Virus record (IMG/VR): IMGVR_UViG_3300020151_000525
Strand: one strand, 5' to 3'
Source of the DNA: a virus
DNA length: 29,343 nt
Made by a program: the position numbers and the translations under genes. This document shows, piece after piece, positions 1 through 29,343 of this stretch (its first letter is position 1; the number at the start of each line of letters is the position of its first letter). The notes under the pieces were generated by a model. That model saw nothing but the letters and a program-made list of their open reading frames with translations. It did not search any database and was not told the origin of the DNA.

Positions 1-99
1 GGTTTGGTTGTGCCACCATCGCGTATAAACGCATAACACGCAGTGCCATCCCATGTGTAACCATAGTTCTCGCAACAGATTTCCGTTGCTGCGGCAGGA
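1..99. repeat. Terminal direct repeat, copy 1 (identical to 29245-29343)
   Basis: Base-by-base comparison: ggtttggttgtgccaccatcgcg...ttccgttgctgcggcagga occurs at both ends. Confidence 0.97.
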
Positions 100-4193: not shown

Positions 4194-4798
4194 TATATTT
4201 TTATTTTCTTTTGTAAATTGTCCTCAATGACTAATGTTATTTCTCTATTCAATGCGTCCTCAAATTCGGGTTGGAAATCAACGATGGTGTCGGTTACTGC
4301 ATCGCGCCAATAAAAGAGTGGTGCAATTCCATTAATGCGAATCTTACGCGTCAAATGTCCTGCCAACCCACGATATGCGCGCTCCTTTGCTTCGGGTGTT
4401 TTGAAGGTCATAAACGATCCATTCGCGTTACGTGGACGAATGCCTTTTATCTTCATCCAATCGTAAATAGCTTTTTGCATTACTCCCATTTCACCCTTTG
4501 CAGGTTTGCTTCCTGCGCCTCTGCGGAATGAATACGGGCTGTTTTGATTGCGTGCCAATCCATTGACACCTTGCTCAACAAAATCAGCGTACACGCTCGC
4601 TTGACCGCGTGCGAAAAATTGAATCTTACTACTCCTTCCATCGTAATAAAATGAAAGCGACCTTCGGAGCGTATCGCTTGCAACAGCTCTGCGTCTTTTA
4701 CCTCTAACGGTGCGATATACACCAAGATTAAGCATTGCACGCTCAACGACTTCCTGCCCAAATCGCTTCATTATCAATGTTAGTGGAGATTCAGCCAT
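4193..4798 (-). CDS. HK97 gp10-like neck/tail-completion protein (putative)
   Basis: 201 aa. Contains ...DTLRRSLSF...YADFVEQGV..., resembling the TG-L-S ... YA-x-VE-G signature of HK97 gp10-family proteins. Sits in the late array. Confidence 0.5.
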   Translation of the reverse strand: MAESPLTLIMKRFGQEVVERAMLNLGVYRTVRGKRRRAVASDTLRRSLSFYYDGRSSKIQFFARGQASVYADFVEQGVNGLARNQNSPYSFRRGAGSKPAKGEMGVMQKAIYDWMKIKGIRPRNANGSFMTFKTPEAKERAYRGLAGHLTRKIRINGIAPLFYWRDAVTDTIVDFQPEFEDALNREITLVIEDNLQKKIKI

Positions 4799-4994
4799 TT
4801 ACGAATTGTGTATAAGCGGTATTGGGATTAGCGACTAACAACTCAACAAATAGTTCAATACCTTTTGAGTTCATTGCGTTGACAAATTCTTGGTTGGAAT
4901 CCTCCCACGCAAAACAAATCGTTCCCCATTGTCCATCCGTTGGTATCACTAATTCAGTGATGCCATTTTCTTTTTGAGTAATTGTATAATTCAT
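4791..4994 (-). CDS. Hypothetical small late protein (67 aa)
   Basis: Coupled by overlap to both neighbours (ATGA upstream, 8-nt overlap downstream). Confidence 0.55.
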   Translation of the reverse strand: MNYTITQKENGITELVIPTDGQWGTICFAWEDSNQEFVNAMNSKGIELFVELLVANPNTAYTQFVNG

Positions 4995-6452: not shown

Positions 6453-7241
6453 TTAATCGCGAATAATATCTAATGTCAATTCACCCGTTGGGCATAATTC
6501 ATTTGCAACTGCAATAGGCATTTCGCACCTTATTCGTCCATCGCCATTGTCATAGTAAGTGCCATAGTTAGACCAACAAAAACATACTTCAGGATTTTCG
6601 CAAGATGGATCAGTACCTGGATTAGAATTGAATAAAGCTACCAATTGGGGTATGTTATCGAATCCCCCTGCGCTGTAACATACAGCCACTTGTTCACCAT
6701 CGCATAAATAACGAATTGAATTGTAAACGGGATAAAGTTCGAAATCTATCACCTGCGAAAAAACACTAACCGTTTCAGCTATGTAAGGAATGTCGCACGC
6801 GTTCCACTCGTAATCAACTGTGATGTCAATTGAACCCTGCACACCGCTCAACACATTGCTAAACTCCTCGATGAATGGAGTAAAGGTAATTGGCTTTGTT
6901 ATGATAACCGATTCATCGAATATCTGACCGTTCTCGATTTCATTAACAAGGTCAGCAAATAACAAAACGCAATCACTAATTGAATGCCTTTGATATTCTG
7001 TTTTGAGTTCCTTATCGCGTGGCAAATCAGCGAACACAACCTCTAATGAATAAGTCAATTGACCAGCATCAATGCTGAATTGATTAGGTACAACGTGCAT
7101 GAATGGAAATTCATCTTCCTTCTCCAAATCCGCTTGGCTTATTTGTCCATGCGTGAATTTTCGAATTAGTGCATGATTATCTGCGAACTCCCTGAGCTTC
7201 GCGATGATAATGTTGTAAGTGTATAGTGATGAATCGCTCAT
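6453..7241 (-). CDS. Virion structural protein with a Cys-rich C-terminal module (262 aa)
   Basis: ORF in the late array between the chaperone-like gene and the fibre gene. The C-terminus reads CDGEQVAVCYS...CENPEVCFCWSNYGTYYDNGDGRIRCEMP...ELCP. Confidence 0.55.
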   Translation of the reverse strand: MSDSSLYTYNIIIAKLREFADNHALIRKFTHGQISQADLEKEDEFPFMHVVPNQFSIDAGQLTYSLEVVFADLPRDKELKTEYQRHSISDCVLLFADLVNEIENGQIFDESVIITKPITFTPFIEEFSNVLSGVQGSIDITVDYEWNACDIPYIAETVSVFSQVIDFELYPVYNSIRYLCDGEQVAVCYSAGGFDNIPQLVALFNSNPGTDPSCENPEVCFCWSNYGTYYDNGDGRIRCEMPIAVANELCPTGELTLDIIRD

Positions 7242-7261
7242 ATTAATATGTAGCTGAATGG

Positions 7262-8019
7262 CTACTTTTTAGTAAGTAATTGTTTCTGAAATTGTGCATA
7301 ATCGATTTTGTAACTCAAATGCGCAAAGATGGTTGACGCTTGTGTCTTGACAATGTTGTCAAATTTAGTGACGTCACGATCTGCGATTTCTTCGATGACA
7401 TGAAACCAACCGTAGTTATTACTTAACTCGCTTGTTGCTGTAACGCTTGCTCCATCATCTGAATCGCCTTCTTCAGTTCCGTCATCATCTGATTGTCTGA
7501 ATACTCTTGGAAACGAATCAACAATTCTTTTTCGATATTCGAAAAAAAAACCATTGCACCGTTCGCAATCATGAGCGGCATATCGTTGAAATACTCCGCG
7601 TTCTTCAGATGGATATTCGAATCGTAATCATCAACCTCGTATCGAGTAATAAATTCATTTTTACAAGGTCTGAATAAGATAGCGAGTAACTTAGTTAGAT
7701 GTTTTGGAAACTCATTACAATTAGCGTCAAGGTCTAACCATTCGCCAAATGTCATGGCGTTAATATCCGGAACGAATCGATAACGATGTTTTTCAGTAAG
7801 AAACCATTTGTTCACAAACTTCGATGGCACGTTGTTCAATGCTTCTTCGAATGATGTTTTAATCTCATTCATTTGCGTTGGTGTAAGCATCAACACTTTG
7901 CTTCGTGGTAGCTTTGTTATGGCTTGCACTTGGTTAACCAAATCGCCTTCGTTGCTTGAGAATCCAACGTACTGGGCAACCGTTATCAATTCGGGGGATA
8001 GGTCTAATTTAATCTTCAT
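7262..8019 (-). CDS. Predicted -1 frameshift fusion product (252 aa: 159 zero-frame codons plus 93 codons in the -1 frame)
   Basis: After GTT TTT TTT the -1 frame (TTC at 7543-7541) stays open for 93 codons to TAG at 7264-7262. It has no ATG/GTG/TTG until codon 76. It fills the 181-nt gap 7242-7422. Confidence 0.65.
7423..8019 (-). CDS. Zero-frame product (198 aa) of a frameshifting gene; tail-assembly-chaperone-like (gpG-type) architecture
   Basis: First ORF after the terminator at 8024-8080. Contains a T9 slippery run 39 codons before its stop. See the fusion product 7262..8019. Confidence 0.75.
   Translation of the reverse strand: MKIKLDLSPELITVAQYVGFSSNEGDLVNQVQAITKLPRSKVLMLTPTQMNEIKTSFEEALNNVPSKFVNKWFLTEKHRYRFVPDINAMTFGEWLDLDANCNEFPKHLTKLLAILFRPCKNEFITRYEVDDYDSNIHLKNAEYFNDMPLMIANGAMVFFSNIEKELLIRFQEYSDNQMMTELKKAIQMMEQALQQQAS
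7542..7550 (-). promoter_or_regulatory. Slippery homopolymer (U9 in the mRNA, containing the heptamer U UUU UUU) for -1 ribosomal frameshifting
   Basis: A9 on the plus strand. The minus-strand context is ATG GTT TTT TTT TCG. A small palindrome TCGAATATCGA follows, and a CGAAT...ATTCG pairing lies downstream. Confidence 0.6.
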
Positions 8020-8023
8020 ATTT

Positions 8024-8080
8024 TAAAAATAAAAAAACACACCCCCTATGCGCCCTGTTCTGATGGGAAGGGGGGGGTGT
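8024..8080 (-). terminator. Rho-independent terminator ending the minus-strand early/middle unit
   Basis: Minus strand: ACACCCCC(8080-8073)...GGGGGTGT(8046-8039), an 8-bp GC-rich stem with inner CCC/GGG pairing, followed by GTTTTTTTATTTTT. It starts 4 nt after the stop of ORF 8084..8251. Confidence 0.7.
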
Positions 8081-10773: not shown

Positions 10774-11265
10774 TCAAGATTGTTTTCTTCTTCGTCCACG
10801 TTTTTTCTTTTCAGTTGGTTGTACTTCTTCTATTTGTAGCACTTCCTCCCTTTTTAGTTGCTTATTGAGTTCCGCAATGGTTTGGTTGACACAAGTCACA
10901 CAACTCGTTACCTTTTCATTGCGGCCAGTCATGAGCGATTTTAAACGCGCTAATGTCGTGCGCTCGTCATTGTTCAATGCACCGTTTTTTCTTGCGTTAA
11001 AAAGAAGCGTTTGAGCATCTTGAATGAGTGAACCATCGACAACTTTCTCCCAACGATTTGCAGGGCAATCGGATAGCGTCATTTTTGTTTTAATGTCCAA
11101 AAAACAACCGCATGGTTTAAATGTAACTCCATCGATTGTCATCGTTTCAGCGAGTGGATTCAGTTTGTTGAGTGGTGTTCCACAGGTTCGCGTTGTCGCG
11201 TTATACGCTGGGCATTCAATACACGTTGCCATTCGTTTGGCTGCCATTTGTAAAATTGTATTCAT
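10774..11265 (-). CDS. Cys-rich protein (CxxC...C...CGC...CPxxxW) with a coiled-coil and a basic tail (163 aa)
   Basis: CIECPAYNATTRTCG...FKPCGCFLDIKTKMTLSDCPANRW. From memory this resembles the DUF6171-type Cys pattern (unverified). The C-terminus is KKKRGRRRKQS. Its ATG overlaps the sigma-gene stop (ATGA). Confidence 0.55.
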   Translation of the reverse strand: MNTILQMAAKRMATCIECPAYNATTRTCGTPLNKLNPLAETMTIDGVTFKPCGCFLDIKTKMTLSDCPANRWEKVVDGSLIQDAQTLLFNARKNGALNNDERTTLARLKSLMTGRNEKVTSCVTCVNQTIAELNKQLKREEVLQIEEVQPTEKKKRGRRRKQS

Positions 11266-11750
11266 AACCTTATTATTGATTTTCTTAATTCATCTTTTGC
11301 GGCTTTCACCGTCTGATATAAATAGCTTTTTGGTATTCCTGTTTCTCTGCTCAAATGATCGTAACTGAAATCATTGAGGGCGTATAAGTAAAACACTTCT
11401 CTCTCAAAGAATGGCAAGCGGCTAATATAAATGTCGAGTTGTTCGTTCGTCAAACGGTCTGCCATCCAAACGGATTCAACCGCCATATTTTGCAAATGCT
11501 CATCGCTAATGTCCGCGTAAAGTTCTGAATGTTTACGGTAAAGGTTGTGATAGCTGCTCCGATTACTGTAATAAGCAATTCGAATGGCATGAGCTACATA
11601 CGCTTCGATGTCTTTAACGTGCGTAATATCGTTTTCGAGAATGCGGCTAATTGTGTCGTGCAGTAAGTCATCCGCTTCAAACGAATTTGCGGTAAGTGAT
11701 AGCGCAATTTTGCGCCAATGGTTATATCTGACCTTTGAGATAGTCATCAA
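11262..11750 (-). CDS. Sigma-70-family (ECF-like) RNA polymerase sigma factor
   Basis: 162 aa. Region-2-like N-terminus (ADDLLHDTISRILEN...AIRIAYY). Region-4 HTH (LPFFEREVFYLYALNDFSYDHLSRETGIPKSYLYQTVKAAKDELRK). Confidence 0.65.
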   Translation of the reverse strand: MMTISKVRYNHWRKIALSLTANSFEADDLLHDTISRILENDITHVKDIEAYVAHAIRIAYYSNRSSYHNLYRKHSELYADISDEHLQNMAVESVWMADRLTNEQLDIYISRLPFFEREVFYLYALNDFSYDHLSRETGIPKSYLYQTVKAAKDELRKSIIRL

Positions 11751-18296: not shown

Positions 18297-18505
18297 ATAT
18301 AACGCACGACTTTGACAACCTGCAAAGCGACACCTACAAAGAAGTCATCACCGATTTAATCGCACGCGAAAAGATGGGGCGTATGAAGTACGGAGTGACT
18401 GTGGACAAAGCTAATTTAAGCGAAGCTGAATGGATGCACCACGCATACGAAGAAGCGTTGGACTTTGCTATCTACCTAAAACGATTAATGAAGTTAAAAA
18501 AATGA
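18293..18505 (+). CDS. Hypothetical small all-alpha protein (70 aa), with weak MazG/dNTP-pyrophosphohydrolase-like features
   Basis: GRMKYGVTVDKANLSEAEWMHHAYEEALDFAIYL. The resemblance is from memory only. Confidence 0.3.
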   Translation: MNITHDFDNLQSDTYKEVITDLIAREKMGRMKYGVTVDKANLSEAEWMHHAYEEALDFAIYLKRLMKLKK

Positions 18506-18845
18506 CGTTGATACCAACCGAATAAAGAGTGGCTTTGCGCCACTTTTTTTTTCTCTTTAATTCCGCATTTAACCCCTCGTTTAATTCCTTATTCAACCCC
18601 TCGATTTGCATGATATAAGCGGCATTACGCTCGTTAATCTCGTTTAATGAATGATTTATCATGCTCAAATTTTGGTTGTCTAGAATCAAATAATCGAGTT
18701 GAGTAACTGCCAACACAACCAACCTTTTCTCTTTACTTATCGAATCCAGTGCGCTCGTAATCGCGTAGCTTTTCAATTGCCTTTGTGTATGCGCTATCGA
18801 TGGCAACAGAATCATAAAGGTAAATAGTATCAATTTGCTTTTCAT
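18468..18845 (-). CDS. Membrane-associated coiled-coil protein with an N-terminal signal-like segment and a C-terminal TM segment (125 aa); spanin-like candidate
   Basis: MKSKLILFTFMILLPSIAHTQ... with no lipobox Cys. An in-frame 24-bp tandem repeat encodes EGLNKELN/EGLNAELK. The C-terminus is ATLYSVGINVIFLTSLIVLG. The 3' end overlaps the convergent gene and the terminator. Confidence 0.45.
   Translation of the reverse strand: MKSKLILFTFMILLPSIAHTQRQLKSYAITSALDSISKEKRLVVLAVTQLDYLILDNQNLSMINHSLNEINERNAAYIMQIEGLNKELNEGLNAELKRKKKWRKATLYSVGINVIFLTSLIVLGR
18528..18552 (+). terminator. Rho-independent terminator of the plus-strand unit (possibly bidirectional)
   Basis: AGTGGC(18528-18533) tttgc GCCACT(18539-18544) followed by a T9 run ending at 18552, 22 nt after the stop at 18505. 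It lies inside the minus-strand ORF 18468..18845. Confidence 0.7.
18557..18604 (-). repeat. Tandem 24-bp direct repeat (20/24 identical), in frame within ORF 18468..18845
   Basis: ttaattccgcatttaacccctcgt / ttaattccttattcaacccctcga. Confidence 0.85.
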
Positions 18846-21523: not shown

Positions 21524-23542
21524 TTATTTAATTCCAAAACGGGGATTGTCGGGTAAAAATCCGTTGTAAGGCATATCAATTGGACGCGTCTCAACTAAAT
21601 AATTGTTGCGTACTTTGTAACCTGCTTTCTCAGCTAAACTCCACGCTTTTTTTCGTGCATTTGGGTTGTTTAAATCGAGACCAAAACCCTTCGCGCTGAT
21701 GTATAATTCCTTTGTCCAAACATGATGGCAATTACCACCGCCTTTGTACAACCAAACGGAATAAGTATCGATACCATTTGGGCCCCAACCTGGATTAACT
21801 GCCTTGTTGTTTAGTGCCATTATATCTTCCTTACGGTATAGCTTATCCGCGCTTAACATCTTACGACAAAATGGACGAGTTGACGATGTTACACGACCAT
21901 TATAGCGGTAACGCGTGTAATACGTTTTACCATCGATAACTTTATCTTGATTACTCGTTGCGTTTGGTTTCGCTGTTCCTGTGCTTACCGCTTGTTCGAT
22001 TGGTGTAATATCAAAAATATGTGCGAGTGCTTCGTTCTCGATATCGTCATTCTCGTAATCGACATCGTAACTGTCAATTAAAATCCAATCTTCATTAACA
22101 TCTTCACCCAGTGCGATTAGTTCCTCTGCGATGTCATCTAAATTTACTTCATCGACTTGAGAAACGCTCTCGTGTTCGCACTTAACTTTTTTTTTTTGGA
22201 CTACTTGAGTTGGGTCAATAACTACATTTGAAAGGTTATCGAAGATGCTATTTATTTGAGCATCGCTCATTGTTGGAAATGCTGCCTTTGTTATTGCTTT
22301 TGCCGATGGAATGGTTAATACATTCGCAGTTGTTTGTACAATAATCTCTAACAATGAAGCTATCTGCGCTCCATTTAATGCCTGACTTGCAACGTCTAAC
22401 GATGGTGCATTATTAACGCTTGTTTGTGCGTCTTGGAATAAATCGTTTTGAGCGATTTCCACTTGCGCATCAATTCCAATCGTTGAAAATAAATACTCGA
22501 TGCTGTCGGTAATCATGCGCTGAAATGGCTCAACAACTTGCTTCATGAAGATACGCATTGCTTGCTTCATTTCATCGGTATTACTACCCAATCCACCACC
22601 ATCACGAATACCAAAAAGCAAAGGACTTGTCACACGATGTCCGACCAATATAGATTCAACCGCTTGTCCTACTAACGTCTCAAATTGTTTGTCCATATCG
22701 GACACTGGAAACGGAGTGAACTCAACGCCACGATCTCTGTCCTCATTGAAAAAAGTTAAAACTTTCCCTGCATTCTCCGCTCCTTGAATCGCTTGTTGCA
22801 ATTGATTCTTAATCATTCGCTGTTCTTCCAAACTTGGAATGCCATTGTTAAACGAAGTAATCAAAGAAGGGAAGAAACCATTTAGAATCAAATTAACTTG
22901 ATACTCGCTTATTTGTCTTGTTAATTCGATGTTGTTTACCGCGCTTATGTAGTCGGGTTTGGGATAGTATTCGCTTCCAGGTACAATTGAATGTACGAAC
23001 ATCACCTGCTTTGGAAATTCGTCCTTGTAATCAGGGTTGAACATGGGAATATACGAAGGTATATTTTTCTTTTTACGGGTATCGTTCCAATCTCGAGAGT
23101 AATAAATACCACTCACATCATCGTTATCATCACTTACGCATAAACGACAATTCTCAAATGGTAAATGATTAATTTGCGCAATGGTACTTCTATCCATCGA
23201 CCAAATTACTTCCCAATAAAAGCCACCATGTAGCTTCAAATCGAGCGCAGTTGAATGTCTTATCTTATCTAATCCTAAACGTGCAATTTCGGTTGATGCC
23301 TGCGCGTTTGTACTAACGAAATCTTGTCCTGCAATCATGAACGCAATTGAATTTACAATGCTTCCATGCACTGGCGATTCGTTGTATAGTTCAATGATAT
23401 AATTTGGAAAGGTATTGCCTTCCCCATAACTCACAAATCCCTTCCTATCTTCAACCTCTATCGGTTGAATCTTTATGTATTTGGACAATTCAACTTGCGT
23501 TGCTCCAATCCTTTGTTTTATTTCGTCAACTATATTAGGCAT
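21524..23542 (-). CDS. Portal protein fused to a C-terminal MuF/SPP1-gp7-like minor head (morphogenesis) domain
   Basis: 672 aa. A roughly 450-aa portal-like body is joined through an acidic linker to ...STRPFCRKMLSADKLYRKEDI...GPNGIDTYSVWLYKGGGNCHHVW, the TRxxC...NC(R/H)(C/H) signature of Mu F-like head morphogenesis proteins. An A11 run sits at the boundary. Confidence 0.7.
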   Translation of the reverse strand: MPNIVDEIKQRIGATQVELSKYIKIQPIEVEDRKGFVSYGEGNTFPNYIIELYNESPVHGSIVNSIAFMIAGQDFVSTNAQASTEIARLGLDKIRHSTALDLKLHGGFYWEVIWSMDRSTIAQINHLPFENCRLCVSDDNDDVSGIYYSRDWNDTRKKKNIPSYIPMFNPDYKDEFPKQVMFVHSIVPGSEYYPKPDYISAVNNIELTRQISEYQVNLILNGFFPSLITSFNNGIPSLEEQRMIKNQLQQAIQGAENAGKVLTFFNEDRDRGVEFTPFPVSDMDKQFETLVGQAVESILVGHRVTSPLLFGIRDGGGLGSNTDEMKQAMRIFMKQVVEPFQRMITDSIEYLFSTIGIDAQVEIAQNDLFQDAQTSVNNAPSLDVASQALNGAQIASLLEIIVQTTANVLTIPSAKAITKAAFPTMSDAQINSIFDNLSNVVIDPTQVVQKKKVKCEHESVSQVDEVNLDDIAEELIALGEDVNEDWILIDSYDVDYENDDIENEALAHIFDITPIEQAVSTGTAKPNATSNQDKVIDGKTYYTRYRYNGRVTSSTRPFCRKMLSADKLYRKEDIMALNNKAVNPGWGPNGIDTYSVWLYKGGGNCHHVWTKELYISAKGFGLDLNNPNARKKAWSLAEKAGYKVRNNYLVETRPIDMPYNGFLPDNPRFGIK

Positions 23543-26226: not shown

Positions 26227-26814
26227 TCACGAATTTAACTCGGTGGTTAGTTCTCTCATTATCTTTTCAATCTCTTGTTCTGCTAAGTATTCATCGCTCA
26301 ACTCGGTAAAGAATCCTTCTAAAGAAAATCCTTTAACATCGCCTTGCTTAATTGATTTCCATACTTCTTCATTATCTACTTTCATACCAATACACCAAGT
26401 ACCATCAGGAAAATTAAATCCAAAATTTTGGCTCTTATCATGCTCTCCTTCTTTAATCCAACTCTCGACAACTGTACAACCCGTAATGGGTATCTCATGT
26501 TGAAGATTGCTGTTGTGGTGCATGTTTCTTTTTAGATATTCTTGCGCGATTTTATTAATCGTTTCTGCGCTGTATTTAGCGTAGTATTCACCGCCTAAAG
26601 AATCAACGCGGTATATCAATTGTTCTGGTAGCATAACCGCGCCATAAAGCATTCTTCGCTCTCCTTCATCAACTGCCGCATGGTTCATTTTCTTTGCGGA
26701 TTTCAACGCGACAAAATCAATTTCAATTGCAGGTTTGTCCACCAATGAAATACAATTCACACCAAGATAACCGCTGTCATCGATGGTGTATTCAATTACT
26801 TTAAATTCGCTCAT
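26227..26814 (-). CDS. XkdF-like putative prohead serine protease
   Basis: ISLVDKPAIEIDF, RMLYGAVMLPE, SAETINKIAQEYLK, VVESWI and GTWCIGMKVDNEEVWKSIKQGDVKGFSLEG parallel the conserved blocks of the PBSX XkdF family (Peptidase_S78_2), recalled from memory. Confidence 0.65.
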   Translation of the reverse strand: MSEFKVIEYTIDDSGYLGVNCISLVDKPAIEIDFVALKSAKKMNHAAVDEGERRMLYGAVMLPEQLIYRVDSLGGEYYAKYSAETINKIAQEYLKRNMHHNSNLQHEIPITGCTVVESWIKEGEHDKSQNFGFNFPDGTWCIGMKVDNEEVWKSIKQGDVKGFSLEGFFTELSDEYLAEQEIEKIMRELTTELNS

Positions 26815-28394
26815 TTTATTATTCTTGATTGGTCTTTAATTTTTTGTTCAGCTTCTTGCGCATTGCTCACGTTAGTTGCGAGTACATACGTTTGTAGCGG
26901 TTGCGCCTTATTTGTTTGCTGATTAATAAATGAAAGGTCTAACGCTGGCACATTTGTACTTCCACCCATACCGCCGCTTGGTGGTGGTGGTGAAGGTGGT
27001 GGTGGACTTCCATCTTTATTAAATCTCATCGAAGCAATCTTTGCGATGTTTGCCGCTCCTGCTGCGGCTGCTATACCTGCAATCACAAACGGATAACCTG
27101 GAAACGCTGTTGCAATGGGTGAAGCTGATGCCGTTGTAAATGCGTTTTGCGTTCCCGTTATTGCGCTCACTGTTGCTTGTGCTAATTGTAACGCTTTACC
27201 AACTTTGAACGATTGCTCCGCGTTTAGTATTCCTGCGCTTGTAAGCAAGTCATTAAGCGACATCATGCCATCAATAGTGGCTGCGGCTAATTCATATTTG
27301 GATGCTTCAAGTGCGCGTTGTCCTTCTATTACCCTTTCGTTCTTATCGTACTCGGCAAGTTCCTCATCTGTCATCAATTGCAAATTGACTTGACTCCTTT
27401 CAAAGTTAGCAGCTAACCTTATTTCAGCTTGTTTTTTACTATCTTCTTCTACTTGTTTGCGTATTGCCTCGAATGATTTTTGATTAGCTTTTATTTGTTC
27501 GGCTAATGCCGCATCTTGTTCCTTCTTCTTTTTCTCTGCTGCTAATCTCGCTTTCTCCGCTTCTTGCGCATTGTACTTATCATTTATTTCCGCTTGTTTT
27601 TTTCTTGCGAGTTCTGTTATTTCCAATTGCAAATCTGCATTACCACGAGCCAACCACAATTGATCGTCATACCACTTTTGGATATCCGCTAATTCTCTTT
27701 GGCGTTCAGTCATGCGACCTCTTGCCAAGTCATCGCGCATCTTTTGCACCGCGTCATTTGCTTTCTGCAAATCCGCTAACATTTCTTCGTTCCGCTTCTT
27801 TGCTTCCTCTGCCCGTTCGCTCGCTTCGGTGTCAATTAACCCCGTCCAATTGAGGAAGTCAGTAATTCCATCAATAACGAAATCAATTTGCTCTTTAATG
27901 AATCCGAAAATTTTACCAACCAATCCACCTGCGTTGACTAATTTATCAAAGTTCAAAATGATAGCCGCGAGTACAGAAACGAGTAAAAAGATTGGATTCA
28001 TCAACAATGTTTTTCCCAAATCGAACATTGTCCCACCAAAACTTTTCGCTCCCTTTGCTAAATCTCCAAACTTAAAATCCTTCATCGCGCTGGTCATACC
28101 CCTAACGCCAGTGAGCGCGTTTTCAAAGTCGAGTGATAGGATGGAAGAACCTATCATTGACATCGAATTATTCAAGCGTTCCAATGGCGCACCGCTAACC
28201 GTATTAACCGACTTACCCAAGTCATCCATACGGTCTTTTAAATCTCCGAGTTGCCTTTGTACTCGGTCAAATTCGGCAGTGCCTTCGGGTAATGTCGCTA
28301 ACTCCTCGCGCAGTTTTCGCATCTGCGTGCGCATGGATTCGACCTTTGCAGTGCCTTGTATATCGACCTCAATAACTACTTCTTGTTTTGCCAT
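26811..28394 (-). CDS. Tape-measure-like / internal virion protein (527 aa)
   Basis: Extended coiled-coil (E/K/A/Q-rich), internal hydrophobic segments (LLMNPIFLLVSVLAAIILNF; FVIAGIAAAAGAANIAKI) and a PPPPSPPPPSGG tract. Confidence 0.45.
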   Translation of the reverse strand: MAKQEVVIEVDIQGTAKVESMRTQMRKLREELATLPEGTAEFDRVQRQLGDLKDRMDDLGKSVNTVSGAPLERLNNSMSMIGSSILSLDFENALTGVRGMTSAMKDFKFGDLAKGAKSFGGTMFDLGKTLLMNPIFLLVSVLAAIILNFDKLVNAGGLVGKIFGFIKEQIDFVIDGITDFLNWTGLIDTEASERAEEAKKRNEEMLADLQKANDAVQKMRDDLARGRMTERQRELADIQKWYDDQLWLARGNADLQLEITELARKKQAEINDKYNAQEAEKARLAAEKKKKEQDAALAEQIKANQKSFEAIRKQVEEDSKKQAEIRLAANFERSQVNLQLMTDEELAEYDKNERVIEGQRALEASKYELAAATIDGMMSLNDLLTSAGILNAEQSFKVGKALQLAQATVSAITGTQNAFTTASASPIATAFPGYPFVIAGIAAAAGAANIAKIASMRFNKDGSPPPPSPPPPSGGMGGSTNVPALDLSFINQQTNKAQPLQTYVLATNVSNAQEAEQKIKDQSRIIK

Positions 28395-28559: not shown

Positions 28560-29343
28560 TTATTCATAATGATATTGTGTGAATGTGGTTAATGCTGTTA
28601 ATTTGATATTATTTTCGGGGTACGTTGCGCTGCCTACTAACTTGACGCGTGGGTAAAATGTCTCTCCGCTTATTACGACATCCCAAACAAGATACCCCGT
28701 AAAATTGTTGAATGTTTCATCGATGGTAGTTGCATTGATAAATAACACCGTTGTTGAGCGGTTTACGATGTGCAAGTTGTATTCACCCGTTATCGTTCCA
28801 TCAGCGCCAGTGTTCTGCATTCCACTTAACAAAATTTTGAGAATCCAAATAGTATTTGTTGGGATATTGTAGCTTTCAAGATTTTCGATTTTCAAATCGA
28901 TGTAAGTTGTGTTATCAGTGAAATCGCCAGTGCCGAAAAGGTGAACGATTCCGCTTTGAACTTGACCGGTATAACTACCTGCACCGCCAATCGTCATGCC
29001 TTTGTTTATCACATTTGCTGCGCTTCCCAACGCGACTACATTACCACCTAAATTATTGGCAACGATTAAATTTCTACCGACTACCAAACTAACATCATTG
29101 TTATCGCCCAAATAGTTTTTTATTCCGCTTATCAATGACGTGTCGTTGCCAGGTCTAACGGTGTTGGTGTCTCCATTTACGAAGTTCGCTAATGGGTCTT
29201 TATCTACGTTACCCGTTGGTTTACCCGTTCCCGTTGTGTCTTGTGGTTTGGTTGTGCCACCATCGCGTATAAACGCATAACACGCAGTGCCATCCCATGT
29301 GTAACCATAGTTCTCGCAACAGATTTCCGTTGCTGCGGCAGGA
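28560..29343 (-). CDS. C-terminal part of the 1009-aa junction-spanning tail protein (29245-29343 duplicates 1-99)
   Basis: No in-frame stop and no start codon in 29136-29343. The frame (first codon base congruent to 2 mod 3) matches ORF 2345..1, because 29,244 is divisible by 3. The track ORF 28560..29135 merely begins at an internal TTG. Confidence 0.8.
   Translation of the reverse strand, partial: PAAATEICCENYGYTWDGTACYAFIRDGGTTKPQDTTGTGKPTGNVDKDPLANFVNGDTNTVRPGNDTSLISGIKNYLGDNNDVSLVVGRNLIVANNLGGNVVALGSAANVINKGMTIGGAGSYTGQVQSGIVHLFGTGDFTDNTTYIDLKIENLESYNIPTNTIWILKILLSGMQNTGADGTITGEYNLHIVNRSTTVLFINATTIDETFNNFTGYLVWDVVISGETFYPRVKLVGSATYPENNIKLTALTTFTQYHYE
29245..29343. repeat. Terminal direct repeat, copy 2 (identical to 1-99)
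   Basis: Same 99-mer as 1-99. It lies inside an open reading frame, so it is not a dedicated cos or att element. Confidence 0.97.

What the first reader, a model, noticed from the sequence alone, without database searches (positions are those of the whole stretch)
7262..7550. Programmed -1 ribosomal frameshift at a U9 run extends a 198-aa late protein into the apparent intergenic gap
Gene 8019->7423 contains ATG GTT TTT TTT TCG (A9 on the plus strand, 7542-7550), which holds a textbook X XXY YYZ slippery heptamer (U UUU UUU).

In the -1 frame, from TTC at 7543-7541, I read 93 sense codons: FEYRKRIVDSFPRVFRQSDDDGTEEGDSDDGASVTATSELSNNYGWFHVIEEIADRDVTKFDNIVKTQASTIFAHLSYKIDYAQFQKQLLTKK. They end at TAG 7264-7262, 20 nt before the next gene start (7241).

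That frame has no ATG/GTG/TTG until codon 76, so it is unlikely to be an independent gene. It accounts for the only sizeable non-coding gap in the late operon (7242-7422). The predicted products are 198 aa and 252 aa, sharing 159 residues, the same two-product layout as gpG/gpGT tail assembly chaperones.

Unusually, this gene is the first in the late unit and lies six genes away from the only tape-measure-like gene (26811..28394).
Basis: partly seen in the sequence, partly recalled or inferred. Interest (0 to 1): 0.72.

Follow-up and report, generated by a model that had tools for sequence, protein, structure and literature searches.

The report
Conserved frameshift in an unknown phage gene
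A run of nine T's in a phage late gene is a real, deeply conserved recoding site that yields a 198-aa and a 252-aa protein from one gene, in a large uncharacterised family where this has never been annotated.

Summary
Gene 8019..7423 (-) contains GTT TTT TTT TCG. The -1 frame is open for 93 codons to TAG 7264-7262.

It is not chance or an assembly error:
- The run is exactly T9 in 105 of 106 related loci, down to about 23-25% identity.
- The -1 ORF is always open (82-93 codons) and has no conserved start codon.
- Substitutions switch from 0-frame to -1-frame third positions at the run.
- The -1 peptide is the best-conserved part of the protein.
- The next gene's start abuts or overlaps the -1 stop, not the 0-frame stop.

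Rare lineages have T7, T10 or TTTTTTC. All keep the in-phase U_UUU_UUY heptamer and the -1 ORF. So ribosomal -1 slippage is the common denominator. RNA polymerase slippage probably adds to it at T9.

The gene is not a recognisable tail assembly chaperone. It has no Pfam or PDB match, and its only PHROG (32199) has unknown function. It is not between tail-tube and tape-measure genes. It sits beside an equally unknown conserved neighbour, usually just after TerL.

Verdict: real recoding, G/GT-like layout, new family, function inferred only.

The parts
7423..8019 (-). 0-frame ORF encoding the 198-aa short product. Residues 1-159 are shared with the long product. Residues 160-198 are a short-form-specific tail.
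   Evidence: PHROG 32199 (unknown function) matches residues 1-177. 51 close homologs and 1,643 clusters at 50% identity.
7542..7550 (-). T9 run (U9 in the mRNA) holding the in-phase slippery heptamer U_UUU_UUU (7549-7543). Phe158 and Phe159 are the P-site and A-site codons.
   Evidence: Exactly T9 in 105 of 106 related loci. The three synonymous sites in the run never vary. Exceptions with T7, T6C and T10 keep the in-phase heptamer.
7262..7543 (-). -1 frame extension: 93 sense codons (FEYRKRIV...QKQLLTKK) plus the TAG stop. It is reached only by recoding at the run. The long product is 252 aa.
   Evidence: 40 of 52 variable sites fall at -1-frame third positions. No conserved start codon. 81-93% identity to a relative that is 47% identical overall.
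7496..7543 (-). Basic helix of the long form (FEYRKRIVDSFPRVFR), which continues the helix that spans the junction. It overlaps the 0-frame tail.
   Evidence: Model helix H149-169 at high confidence. 1 of 14 amino-acid columns vary in the -1 frame, against 7 of 13 in the 0 frame.
7439..7489 (-). Acidic, Gly-rich linker of the long form, predicted disordered (residues 178-194).
   Evidence: pLDDT below 50 for residues 178-194. Low-complexity acidic segment in all long forms.
7268..7429 (-). Conserved helical C-terminal domain of the long form (YGWFHVIEEIADRDVTKFD...HLSYKIDY...). It is the most conserved part of the protein.
   Evidence: pLDDT 83-95. In P12024S it is called as the separate ORF gp39. 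A few database ORFs match only this part.
6453..7241 (-). Invariably adjacent downstream gene (262 aa). Its N-terminal ~155 aa belong to the P12024S gp41 / PHROG 30964 family of unknown function. It is a candidate partner.
   Evidence: Homologs sit directly downstream in all lineages inspected. Its ATG overlaps or abuts the -1 ORF stop in 65 unique loci. No Pfam or PDB match.
7250..7265 (-). Small hairpin GUAGC-loop-GCUAC that includes the UAG stop of the -1 ORF, about 10 nt before the next gene's start. Seen in the near clade only.
   Evidence: The stem sequence differs between close relatives in an apparently compensatory way. It is absent in distant lineages, so it is not part of the recoding signal.
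8031..8080 (-). Terminator-like G+C-rich hairpin followed by U7, directly upstream of the gene's ATG. It marks the start of the late unit.
   Evidence: sequence; minimum free energy -19.3 kcal/mol, z = -1.9. The simple scanner did not call it because the loop is long.

Best explanation
Gene 8019..7423 is decoded in two ways.

Standard reading gives a 198-aa protein. A fraction of expression events moves into the -1 frame at the U9 run (GUU UUU UUU UCG). This gives a 252-aa protein made of the shared residues 1-159, a basic helix, a disordered acidic linker and a small conserved helical C-domain.

The most likely route is tandem -1 slippage of the two tRNA-Phe on the in-phase heptamer U_UUU_UUU. 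That heptamer is the one feature kept in every lineage. Because the run is nine U's long, RNA polymerase slippage that adds one U probably contributes as well. It gives the same protein.

Shown by comparative analysis:
- the site is real;
- the -1 ORF is protein-coding and has no start of its own;
- both the heptamer and the ORF are conserved across a very large family.

Inferred:
- the ratio of the two products;
- the split between ribosomal and transcriptional routes;
- the function.

My functional proposal is that the protein is a morphogenesis (assembly) factor with gpG/gpGT-like logic. The common N-domain would do one job. The rarer long form would use its tethered C-domain to recruit a second partner. 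The best candidate partner is the product of the invariably adjacent downstream gene. This protein is not a member of any known chaperone family.
For: **The site**
- The sequence is as described.
- T9 and a 93-codon -1 ORF are present in all 19 close relatives covering the site, from independent metagenome assemblies.
- Upstream of the run, 41 of 54 variable sites lie at 0-frame third positions. Downstream of the 0-frame stop, 40 of 52 lie at -1-frame third positions. Variability is reduced in the overlap.
- No start codon is conserved in the -1 ORF, and two relatives have none at all.
- Conservation of the -1 peptide begins at the run. Against a relative that is 47% identical overall, the first 14 codons are 93% identical and the C-terminal part 81%.

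**Deep conservation**
- P12024S gp38 (25% identity) has CTT TTT TTT TAT, with the -1 frame open into the annotated 'gp39'.
- L029 (23% identity) has GAT TTT TTT TTG.
- 105 of 106 loci have T9.
- The T7, T6C and T10 lineages all keep the in-phase T_TTT_TTY heptamer and a -1 ORF with the C-domain.
- H_HH.U_UU.Y heptamers are among the most efficient -1 shifters in E. coli (PMC4066793).

**The long form is a real protein**
- Single-frame long forms exist. One example is P0125: 269 aa, 26 members, no run at the junction.
- The long form folds confidently: pLDDT 87, pTM 0.82.
- The downstream gene's ATG overlaps the -1 stop by 4 nt in 27 unique loci and by 1 nt in 14. In the rest it overlaps by more (5 loci) or lies 14-20 nt after the stop (18 loci), with one outlier at 91 nt. 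The 0-frame stop is 60-200 nt upstream.

**A transcriptional contribution**
- T9 is strongly preferred.
- The residues flanking FF co-vary so that the total stays at nine T's: 64:5 against 1:12, Fisher p = 9e-10.
- Runs Tn with n > 8 are known sites of programmed transcriptional realignment (PMC3711429).
Against: - There is no protein or RNA evidence. Everything is comparative.
- No conserved stimulatory RNA structure was found on either side of the run. Mean z was -0.34 upstream and +0.36 downstream over 82 unique sequences. Rfam found nothing. Ribosomal efficiency may therefore be low.
- The strong preference for exactly nine T's is not needed by the heptamer model. It points to a run-length-dependent process.
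- The covariation statistic ignores shared ancestry.
- Function is unsupported by homology: no Pfam match and no PDB match by sequence or fold. The only link to a 'tail assembly chaperone' label is a weak match to a predicted viral structure (E = 0.024, TM about 0.3).
- The gene's position is not the canonical one for a chaperone.
Confidence: 0.75

Rival explanations
1. The long product is made mainly or only by transcriptional slippage. RNA polymerase realigns on the nine-base run and inserts one extra U. Ribosomes then read the extension in the normal way, with no ribosomal frameshift.
For: - The run is T9 in 105 of 106 loci, in two different codon phases.
- The residues flanking FF co-vary so as to keep the total at nine T's.
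- No RNA stimulator for ribosomal frameshifting was found.
- Tn with n > 8 (Shigella mxiE) and An with n > 7 (Thermus dnaX A9) are established slippage sites (PMC3711429; PMC5009743).
- The same genome has a conserved A11 run in its portal gene.
Against: - Lineages with TTTTTTC (six T's) or T7 keep the -1 ORF and its C-domain. Polymerase slippage should be very inefficient at those lengths.
- The one invariant feature is the in-phase X_XXY_YYZ heptamer, with FF as the P-site and A-site codons. A purely transcriptional mechanism does not need this.
Confidence: 0.3
2. This is an assembly or sequencing error, or a recent frameshift mutation. The true gene would be a single 252-aa ORF (T10 or T7), so nothing is programmed.
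For: - One related contig (L023, a Logan assembly) has T7 and an in-frame 247-aa ORF.
- A few singleton database proteins are in-frame long forms with junctions such as LFFFDYRR.
Against: - T9 occurs in 105 of 106 loci from many independent samples and assemblers.
- The T10 lineages are reproducible across independent contigs and still need a -1 shift.
- The in-frame variants are singletons.
- The arrangement persists down to 23-25% identity. A lesion could not persist that long.
Confidence: 0.02
3. The 3' part of the -1 ORF is an independent small gene that starts at its own, possibly non-canonical, start codon, as annotated for gp39 of P12024S.
For: - P12024S gp39 is annotated as a separate 55-aa CDS with an ATG.
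- A few gene callers produce ORFs that cover only the extension.
Against: - No start codon is conserved. Two close relatives have no ATG, GTG or TTG anywhere in the 93 codons, and the window has none before codon 76.
- The most conserved -1 residues (FEYRKRIVDSFPRVF) lie right after the run, upstream of any candidate start.
- True single-frame long forms show the two parts belong to one polypeptide.
Confidence: 0.03
4. On function: the gene is simply this phage's gpG/gpGT tail assembly chaperone, displaced from its usual place and diverged beyond recognition.
For: - It has the same two-product layout by -1 recoding.
- It is the only conserved recoded gene in the genome's late operon.
- A tape-measure-like gene exists (527 aa, PHROG 1538, E = 1e-9).
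- The nearest cultured relatives (genus Inhavirus) were described as siphoviruses. That is my recollection of Kang et al. 2012, which is not held in the library.
- There is a weak fold match to a protein labelled tail assembly chaperone (E = 0.024).
Against: - The gene is not between a tail-tube gene and the tape-measure gene. It is first in the unit and several genes away from the tape-measure-like gene.
- In distant relatives it directly follows TerL.
- No Pfam or PHROG chaperone family matches any of 40 diverse members.
- The confident model has no PDB fold match (best E = 3.2).
- The long form, not the short one, is under the stronger constraint. Some lineages make only the long form. Lambda, by contrast, needs excess short gpG.
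Confidence: 0.35

Closest known systems
Lambda gpG/gpGT and the conserved tail assembly chaperone frameshift of long-tailed phages (Levin 1993; Xu 2004; reviewed in PMC5009743)
   Same: [quoted passage not shown]
- The extension has no start of its own and fills an apparent intergenic gap.
- The arrangement is conserved across very divergent sequences.
   Different: - There is no sequence or fold similarity to any known chaperone family.
- The gene is not between tail-tube and tape-measure genes. It heads the late unit and usually follows TerL.
- The slip site is a U9 homopolymer rather than G_GGA_AAG.
- It lies 39 codons before the 0-frame stop, further upstream than I recall for lambda (from memory, not checked).
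- The long form is the more conserved product, and it is the only product in some lineages.
T7/T3 gene 10A/10B capsid frameshift, and similar -1 or +1 C-terminal extension frameshifts in phage structural proteins (own knowledge; see PMC5009743)
   Same: A minor, C-terminally extended isoform of a late protein is made by a -1 shift near the end of the ORF, without an elaborate stimulator.
   Different: In those cases the proteins are virion components of known function. Here the family is uncharacterised and the extension carries a separate, highly conserved folded domain on a disordered tether.
Programmed transcriptional realignment at homopolymer runs: Shigella mxiE (T9) and Thermus thermophilus dnaX (A9) (PMC3711429; PMC5009743)
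   Same: - There is a nine-base A/T run inside a coding region.
- Adding one base to the RNA gives an extended product.
- The run length is conserved.
   Different: In this family, lineages with only six or seven T's keep the two-frame arrangement and the in-phase heptamer. Polymerase slippage therefore cannot be the sole or ancestral mechanism.
IS1/IS3-family transposase frameshifts that use U_UUU_UUC or A_AAA_AAG (PMC4066793)
   Same: - They use the same class of heptamer. U_UU.U_UU.Y is rated highly efficient in E. coli.
- They make a fusion of two overlapping frames.
- Some clusters are thought to use both ribosomal and transcriptional routes.
   Different: - IS elements usually have a downstream hairpin or pseudoknot, or an upstream Shine-Dalgarno-like stimulator. 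None was detected here.
- The biological context is different.

Membership tests
Tail assembly chaperone (gpG/gpGT type) | Two products share an N-terminus. [quoted passage not shown] | tested here: met
   The evidence is comparative only; no protein data.
Tail assembly chaperone (gpG/gpGT type) | The gene lies between the major tail (tube) protein gene and the tape measure gene. | tested here: not met
   It is the first gene after a terminator-like hairpin. The gene after it is a PHROG 30964-like gene. The only tape-measure-like gene (26811..28394) is several genes downstream on the circular map. In 78 distant loci the gene follows TerL directly.
Tail assembly chaperone (gpG/gpGT type) | Sequence membership in a known chaperone family (Pfam Phage_TAC families, or PHROGs annotated as tail assembly chaperone). 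| tested here: not met
   No Pfam match for the window protein or for any of 40 diverse members. The only PHROG is 32199, of unknown function.
Tail assembly chaperone (gpG/gpGT type) | Fold similarity to a solved or annotated chaperone. | tested here: inconclusive
PDB Foldseek with the confident model gave a best E of 3.2. The PDB profile search found nothing.
Tail assembly chaperone (gpG/gpGT type) | Binds the tape measure protein (shared domain) and the tail tube protein (extension), and is absent from virions. | not testable with these tools
   Needs biochemistry or virion proteomics.
Programmed -1 ribosomal frameshift site | An in-phase X_XXY_YYZ slippery heptamer. | tested here: met
   U_UUU_UUU at 7549-7543 in phase. 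An in-phase T_TTT_TTY is present in every lineage examined, including the T7 and TTTTTTC lineages.
Programmed -1 ribosomal frameshift site | The -1 ORF is under purifying selection as protein, has no start of its own, and the slip site is conserved at synonymous positions. | tested here: met
   The three synonymous sites in GTT TTT TTT are invariant, while about 80% of nearby third positions vary in the close clade.
Programmed -1 ribosomal frameshift site | A stimulatory element: a downstream hairpin or pseudoknot, or an upstream rRNA-pairing site. | tested here: not met
   No folding signal over 82 unique sequences, with mean z +0.36 downstream and -0.34 upstream. No Rfam match. This feature is common but not obligatory.
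Programmed -1 ribosomal frameshift site | The trans-frame protein is detected, and the shift is shown to occur on the ribosome. | not testable with these tools
   Needs mass spectrometry, reporter assays and cDNA sequencing.
Programmed transcriptional realignment (polymerase slippage) | A homopolymeric A/T run long enough for realignment (An with n > 7, Tn with n > 8). | tested here: met
   T9 in the window. Threshold taken from PMC3711429.
Programmed transcriptional realignment (polymerase slippage) | Run length, rather than codon phase or heptamer, is the conserved property across relatives. | tested here: inconclusive
   For: T9 in 105 of 106 loci in two phases, and covariation that keeps nine T's. 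Against: the T6C and T7 lineages keep the system, and T10 lineages exist.
Programmed transcriptional realignment (polymerase slippage) | Transcripts differ in run length while the DNA is uniform. | not testable with these tools
   Needs RNA and DNA amplicon sequencing from infected cells.

The most novel reading that the evidence does not exclude
PHROG 32199 is a very large, previously unrecognised recoded gene family of abundant aquatic phages with genomes of about 30-35 kb. It encodes a protein of novel fold that is unrelated to known tail chaperones. A U-run tuned to nine bases works as a dual slippage site for both the ribosome and RNA polymerase, and sets the ratio of the short and long isoforms. 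Translation of the invariably adjacent downstream gene is coupled to the frameshifted ribosomes. The same phages use a second conserved homopolymer (A11) in the portal gene to make a truncated portal. If so, run-mediated isoform production is a general strategy in this lineage.
Probability: 0.3. Interest if true: 0.7.

Novelty: new variant of a known kind. Interest (0 to 1): 0.58.

Why it matters
- Programmed frameshifts in phage late genes are used as landmarks for annotation and as models for how fixed protein ratios are encoded. This site adds a new, very large family: at least 1,643 clusters at 50% identity. Its only cultured members are two Nonlabens phages.
- In public records the recoding is missed. 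The extension is left as a gap or called as a stray small ORF.
- The family offers natural 'mutants' (T6C, T7, T9, T10 and true single-frame forms). These could separate ribosomal slippage from polymerase slippage on the same protein background.
- It flags a conserved gene pair (PHROG 32199 and PHROG 30964) at the head of the tail module as a target for working out assembly in a widespread, almost wholly unannotated group of aquatic phages.
- In practice, gene callers and frameshift predictors trained on known chaperones would miss it.

Tried and rejected
**Searches that found nothing**
- Megablast of the region against GenBank phages: no match.
- Pfam on both products and on 40 family members: nothing.
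- PDB profile search: nothing.
- PDB Foldseek, first with a poor model and then with a good one: nothing.
- Rfam on the whole window: nothing.
- tblastn of the single-frame member P0125 against GenBank phages: no match.
- Literature searches for this recoding in Flavobacterium or Bacteroidota phages: nothing.
- The original P12024S paper is not held in the library.

**RNA structure**
- A downstream or upstream RNA stimulator was sought with single-sequence folds and z-scores over 82 sequences. None was found.
- A small palindrome at the 3' end of the run (UUUCGA-AUA-UCGAAA) can be explained by dual coding. It is absent in P12024S.
- An apparent hairpin just upstream of the run is not in a consistent register between relatives.

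**Function by association**
- The conserved downstream neighbour has no Pfam, PDB or named homolog.
- The 1009-aa, 612-aa, 486-aa and 201-aa neighbours are also uninformative.

**Ideas revised or dropped**
- After I leaned towards pure transcriptional slippage. I then looked at the motif exceptions and found T7 and TTTTTTC lineages that keep the system. That moved the balance back to the ribosome.
- An alignment-based locus search failed because the alignment had no stretch conserved enough to search with.
- Two single-protein locus scans found nothing.
- I considered a small-terminase role because of the adjacency to TerL. I rejected it because a small ORF already sits upstream of TerL in relatives, and because linkage is tighter to the downstream gene than to TerL.
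Full report
**1. The observation**

The minus strand at 7551-7540 reads GTT TTT TTT TCG inside the ORF 8019..7423, which encodes 198 aa. From TTC at 7543-7541 the -1 frame is open for 93 codons, ending at TAG 7264-7262. That is 20 nt before the next gene's ATG at 7241. The first ATG/GTG/TTG in that frame is at codon 76. Only 0.66% of -1-frame positions in this genome's late genes have 93 or more open codons.

**2. Genome context**

The window ends overlap by 99 nt, so this is a complete circular phage genome of 29,244 bp with 38.8% G+C.

One long minus-strand late operon begins at this gene, just after a terminator-like hairpin followed by U7. Its order is:
- the frameshift gene;
- a 262-aa gene;
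- a 486-aa fibre-like gene;
- a 67-aa ORF;
- 201-aa and 612-aa genes;
- a 1009-aa ORF that spans the window ends;
- a 527-aa gene with a modest tape-measure match (PHROG 1538, E = 1e-9);
- prohead protease, scaffold-like gene, capsid and two small genes;
- portal, a DUF6712 gene, holin and endolysin.

TerL is on the other strand. The nearest cultured relatives are Nonlabens phages P12024S and P12024L, genus Inhavirus. Their portal is about 32% identical to this one.

**3. Is the recoding real?**

A scan of IMG/VR returned 21 related loci at 78-91% amino-acid identity.
- All 19 that cover the site have exactly T9.
- All 19 have a -1 ORF of exactly 93 codons ending about 20 nt before the next gene.

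Among 15 unique sequences:
- Upstream of the run, variable sites fall at third positions of the 0 frame (41 of 54).
- Downstream of the 0-frame stop, they fall at third positions of the -1 frame (40 of 52).
- The overlap is less variable (24 of 115 sites).
- No start codon is conserved in the -1 ORF, and two relatives have none in 93 codons.

The -1 peptide is conserved from its first residue. I compared the window with L026, which is 47% identical overall.
- The first 14 -1 codons are 93% identical, against 62% for the 0 frame over the same DNA.
- The C-terminal 52 residues of the -1 ORF are 81% identical.

So the extension is translated, translation enters it at the run, and the long product is under stronger constraint than the short product's own tail.

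**4. Depth of conservation**

P12024S gp38 (25% identity) carries CTT TTT TTT TAT. Its -1 frame runs open into the separately annotated gp39, which aligns with our C-domain.

I searched 1.84 billion representative proteins with a profile of the fused product. It found 1,643 clusters at E <= 1e-3 and 612 at E <= 1e-10. The hits fall into three groups:
- Most are 185-220 aa and match only the N-domain.
- A minority are 239-269 aa and match the whole fused profile in one frame.
- A few short ORFs match only the extension.

Long forms with a Phe-run junction are singletons. P0125 is different: 269 aa, junction TAT TTC TTC GGT, with 26 members all of 269 aa. It is a true single-frame long form. The long architecture is therefore a single polypeptide and probably ancestral.

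The architecture is N-domain, basic helix, acidic linker, then a C-domain with WGW[YF]...D[IV]TKFD.

At the DNA level, 105 of 106 loci with a recognisable junction have T9. Of these, 101 read NTT TTT TTT TNN and 4 read NNT TTT TTT TTN. The sampled loci are related to each other, so these counts are not independent events.

**5. Mechanism**

Two observations pull in different directions.

The first favours a process that depends on run length. Nine T's are strongly preferred. The residues flanking FF co-vary so that the total stays at nine:
- When the residue before FF is V, L, I or F, the residue after is S, W, Y or C in 64 of 69 cases.
- When the residue before FF is A, G, N or D, the residue after is L or F in 12 of 13 cases.
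- Fisher p = 9e-10, uncorrected for phylogeny.

Runs Tn with n > 8 are known sites of programmed transcriptional realignment (PMC3711429). No RNA stimulator for ribosomal shifting was found.

The second favours the ribosome. I examined the DNA behind the motif exceptions:
- L158 and L159 have only T7: GAT TTT TTT ACA and TCT TTT TTT ACG.
- L160 has AAT TTT TTC TCA.
- Two further lineages have T10, each seen in independent contigs.

All of them keep the short 0-frame ORF and an open -1 ORF with the C-domain.

The only invariant is the in-phase heptamer U_UUU_UUY, with the two Phe codons in the P and A sites, together with the -1 direction. That heptamer class is among the most efficient in E. 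coli (PMC4066793).

I conclude that ribosomal -1 slippage is the mechanism common to the family. It is the most likely main route here. Polymerase slippage probably adds to it at T9 and T10. Both routes give ...GAMVFFFEYRK..., so protein data alone cannot separate them.

**6. Gene packing**

In 65 unique loci:
- The downstream gene's ATG overlaps the -1 ORF stop by 4 nt (ATGA) in 27.
- It overlaps by 1 nt in 14.
- In the rest it overlaps by more (5 loci) or lies 14-20 nt after the stop (18 loci), with one outlier at 91 nt.
- The 0-frame stop lies 60-200 nt upstream.

The genome is organised as if the -1 ORF were an ordinary coding region. The downstream gene may be translationally coupled to ribosomes that have shifted frame. 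That last point is an inference.

**7. What is the protein?**

- Pfam finds nothing for the window protein or for 40 diverse members.
- The only PHROG is 32199, of unknown function.
- With a 27-sequence alignment, AlphaFold2 gives a confident model with pLDDT 87 and pTM 0.82. It shows an alpha/beta N-domain and a helix across the junction. Residues 178-194 form a disordered linker. A helical C-domain follows.
- This model has no PDB match (best E = 3.2).
- An earlier, poorer model matched 39 uncharacterised predicted viral structures at E < 1e-3, including P12024S gp38. The first named match was a 'tail assembly chaperone' at rank 44, with E = 0.024 and TM about 0.3.
- Among 50,697 GenBank phage records, only the two Nonlabens phages carry the family. 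There it is annotated as separate hypothetical ORFs.

**8. Synteny**

TerL lies directly upstream on the same strand in 78 of the 82 newly fetched distant loci (L032-L113), and also in L029-L031 and P12024S. It is not upstream in our clade or in L158, L159 and L161.

The downstream neighbour is the ~150-aa P12024S gp41 / PHROG 30964 family, which is extended to 262 aa here. It is adjacent in every lineage inspected. It is also unannotated and very abundant, with at least 6,829 clusters.

**9. Interpretation**

The expression logic is that of gpG/gpGT. Membership in a known chaperone family fails on position and homology, and is inconclusive on fold.

The long form is the more constrained product, and some lineages make only the long form. 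This differs from lambda, where excess short gpG is needed.

My best guess is an assembly factor. Its tethered C-domain would recruit a partner, most plausibly the product of the adjacent gene. I give a true tail-chaperone role about 35-40% probability.

**10. Rivals rejected**

- Assembly error: T9 is reproducible across samples, and in-frame variants are singletons.
- An independent start for the downstream ORF: there is no conserved start, and conservation begins at the run.

**11. Verdict**

- It extends far beyond this window, to a large unannotated recoded family.
- Both the kind of recoding and the kind of heptamer are known.
- The protein family, its genomic place, the U9 preference and the natural series of run lengths are new.
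- Interest is moderate to high for recoding and phage-assembly specialists.

Noticed in passing
window 22187-22197 (plus-strand T11; A11 in the portal gene 23542..21524, minus strand): The portal gene has an A11 run (CAA AAA AAA AAA GTT, about codon 448) beyond the recognisable portal domain. Both alternative frames stop within 4-17 codons. Slippage would therefore give a portal of about 450-465 aa that lacks its C-terminal ~220 aa. A11 is conserved in 23 of 26 related portal loci, even though the sequence just after it switches between several C-terminal modules. One contig has A12 with a broken frame. This may be a second programmed slippage site.
   Followed up: partly
window 18544-18552 (plus-strand T9; A9 in ORF 18845..18468, minus strand): A third long homopolymer, A9, encodes ...RKKKW... 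just before a C-terminal hydrophobic segment of a 125-aa ORF. Conservation was not checked.
   Followed up: no
window 1-99 and 29245-29343: The two ends of the window are identical over 99 nt. The window is therefore a complete circular, or circularly permuted, genome of 29,244 bp. A 1009-aa ORF with no PHROG match spans the junction.
   Followed up: yes
window 7250-7265 (minus strand): A hairpin GUAGC-loop-GCUAC includes the UAG stop of the -1 ORF and ends about 10 nt before the next gene's ATG. Close relatives have different stem sequences that still pair (GCGG..CGC, GCCA..GGC). It is absent in distant lineages, where stop and start overlap instead. It could modulate initiation of the downstream gene.
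   Followed up: partly
L023, L024 and L025 (relatives of window 7262-8019): Three single-contig variants fuse the frames at the DNA level. L023 has T7, which is 2 nt shorter. L024 keeps T9 but has a deletion of about 31 nt just after it. L025 keeps T9 but has a later deletion that joins the 0-frame tail to the C-domain. They are either rare natural long-only genotypes or assembly artefacts.
   Followed up: partly
window 4791-4994 (minus strand): A 67-aa ORF (MNYTITQKENG...) fills the apparent 192-nt gap between the 486-aa and 201-aa genes. Its stop overlaps the next gene's start.
   Followed up: no
window 6453-7241 (minus strand), and L001, L026, L029, L049-L058: The downstream neighbour family (P12024S gp41-like, PHROG 30964) is about 150 aa in most phages but 262 aa here. 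The extra part is a Cys-rich C-terminal extension. The family has at least 6,829 clusters at 90% identity, all unnamed, on contigs of about 30-36 kb that include TARA ocean samples.
   Followed up: partly
window 11262-11750 (minus strand) and 8031-8080: The phage encodes a sigma-factor-like protein (PHROG 1740, E = 1e-11). No sigma-70-type promoter is found upstream of the late operon, against 4.9 expected by chance. The late unit starts right after a terminator-like hairpin. This suggests phage-directed late transcription.
   Followed up: no
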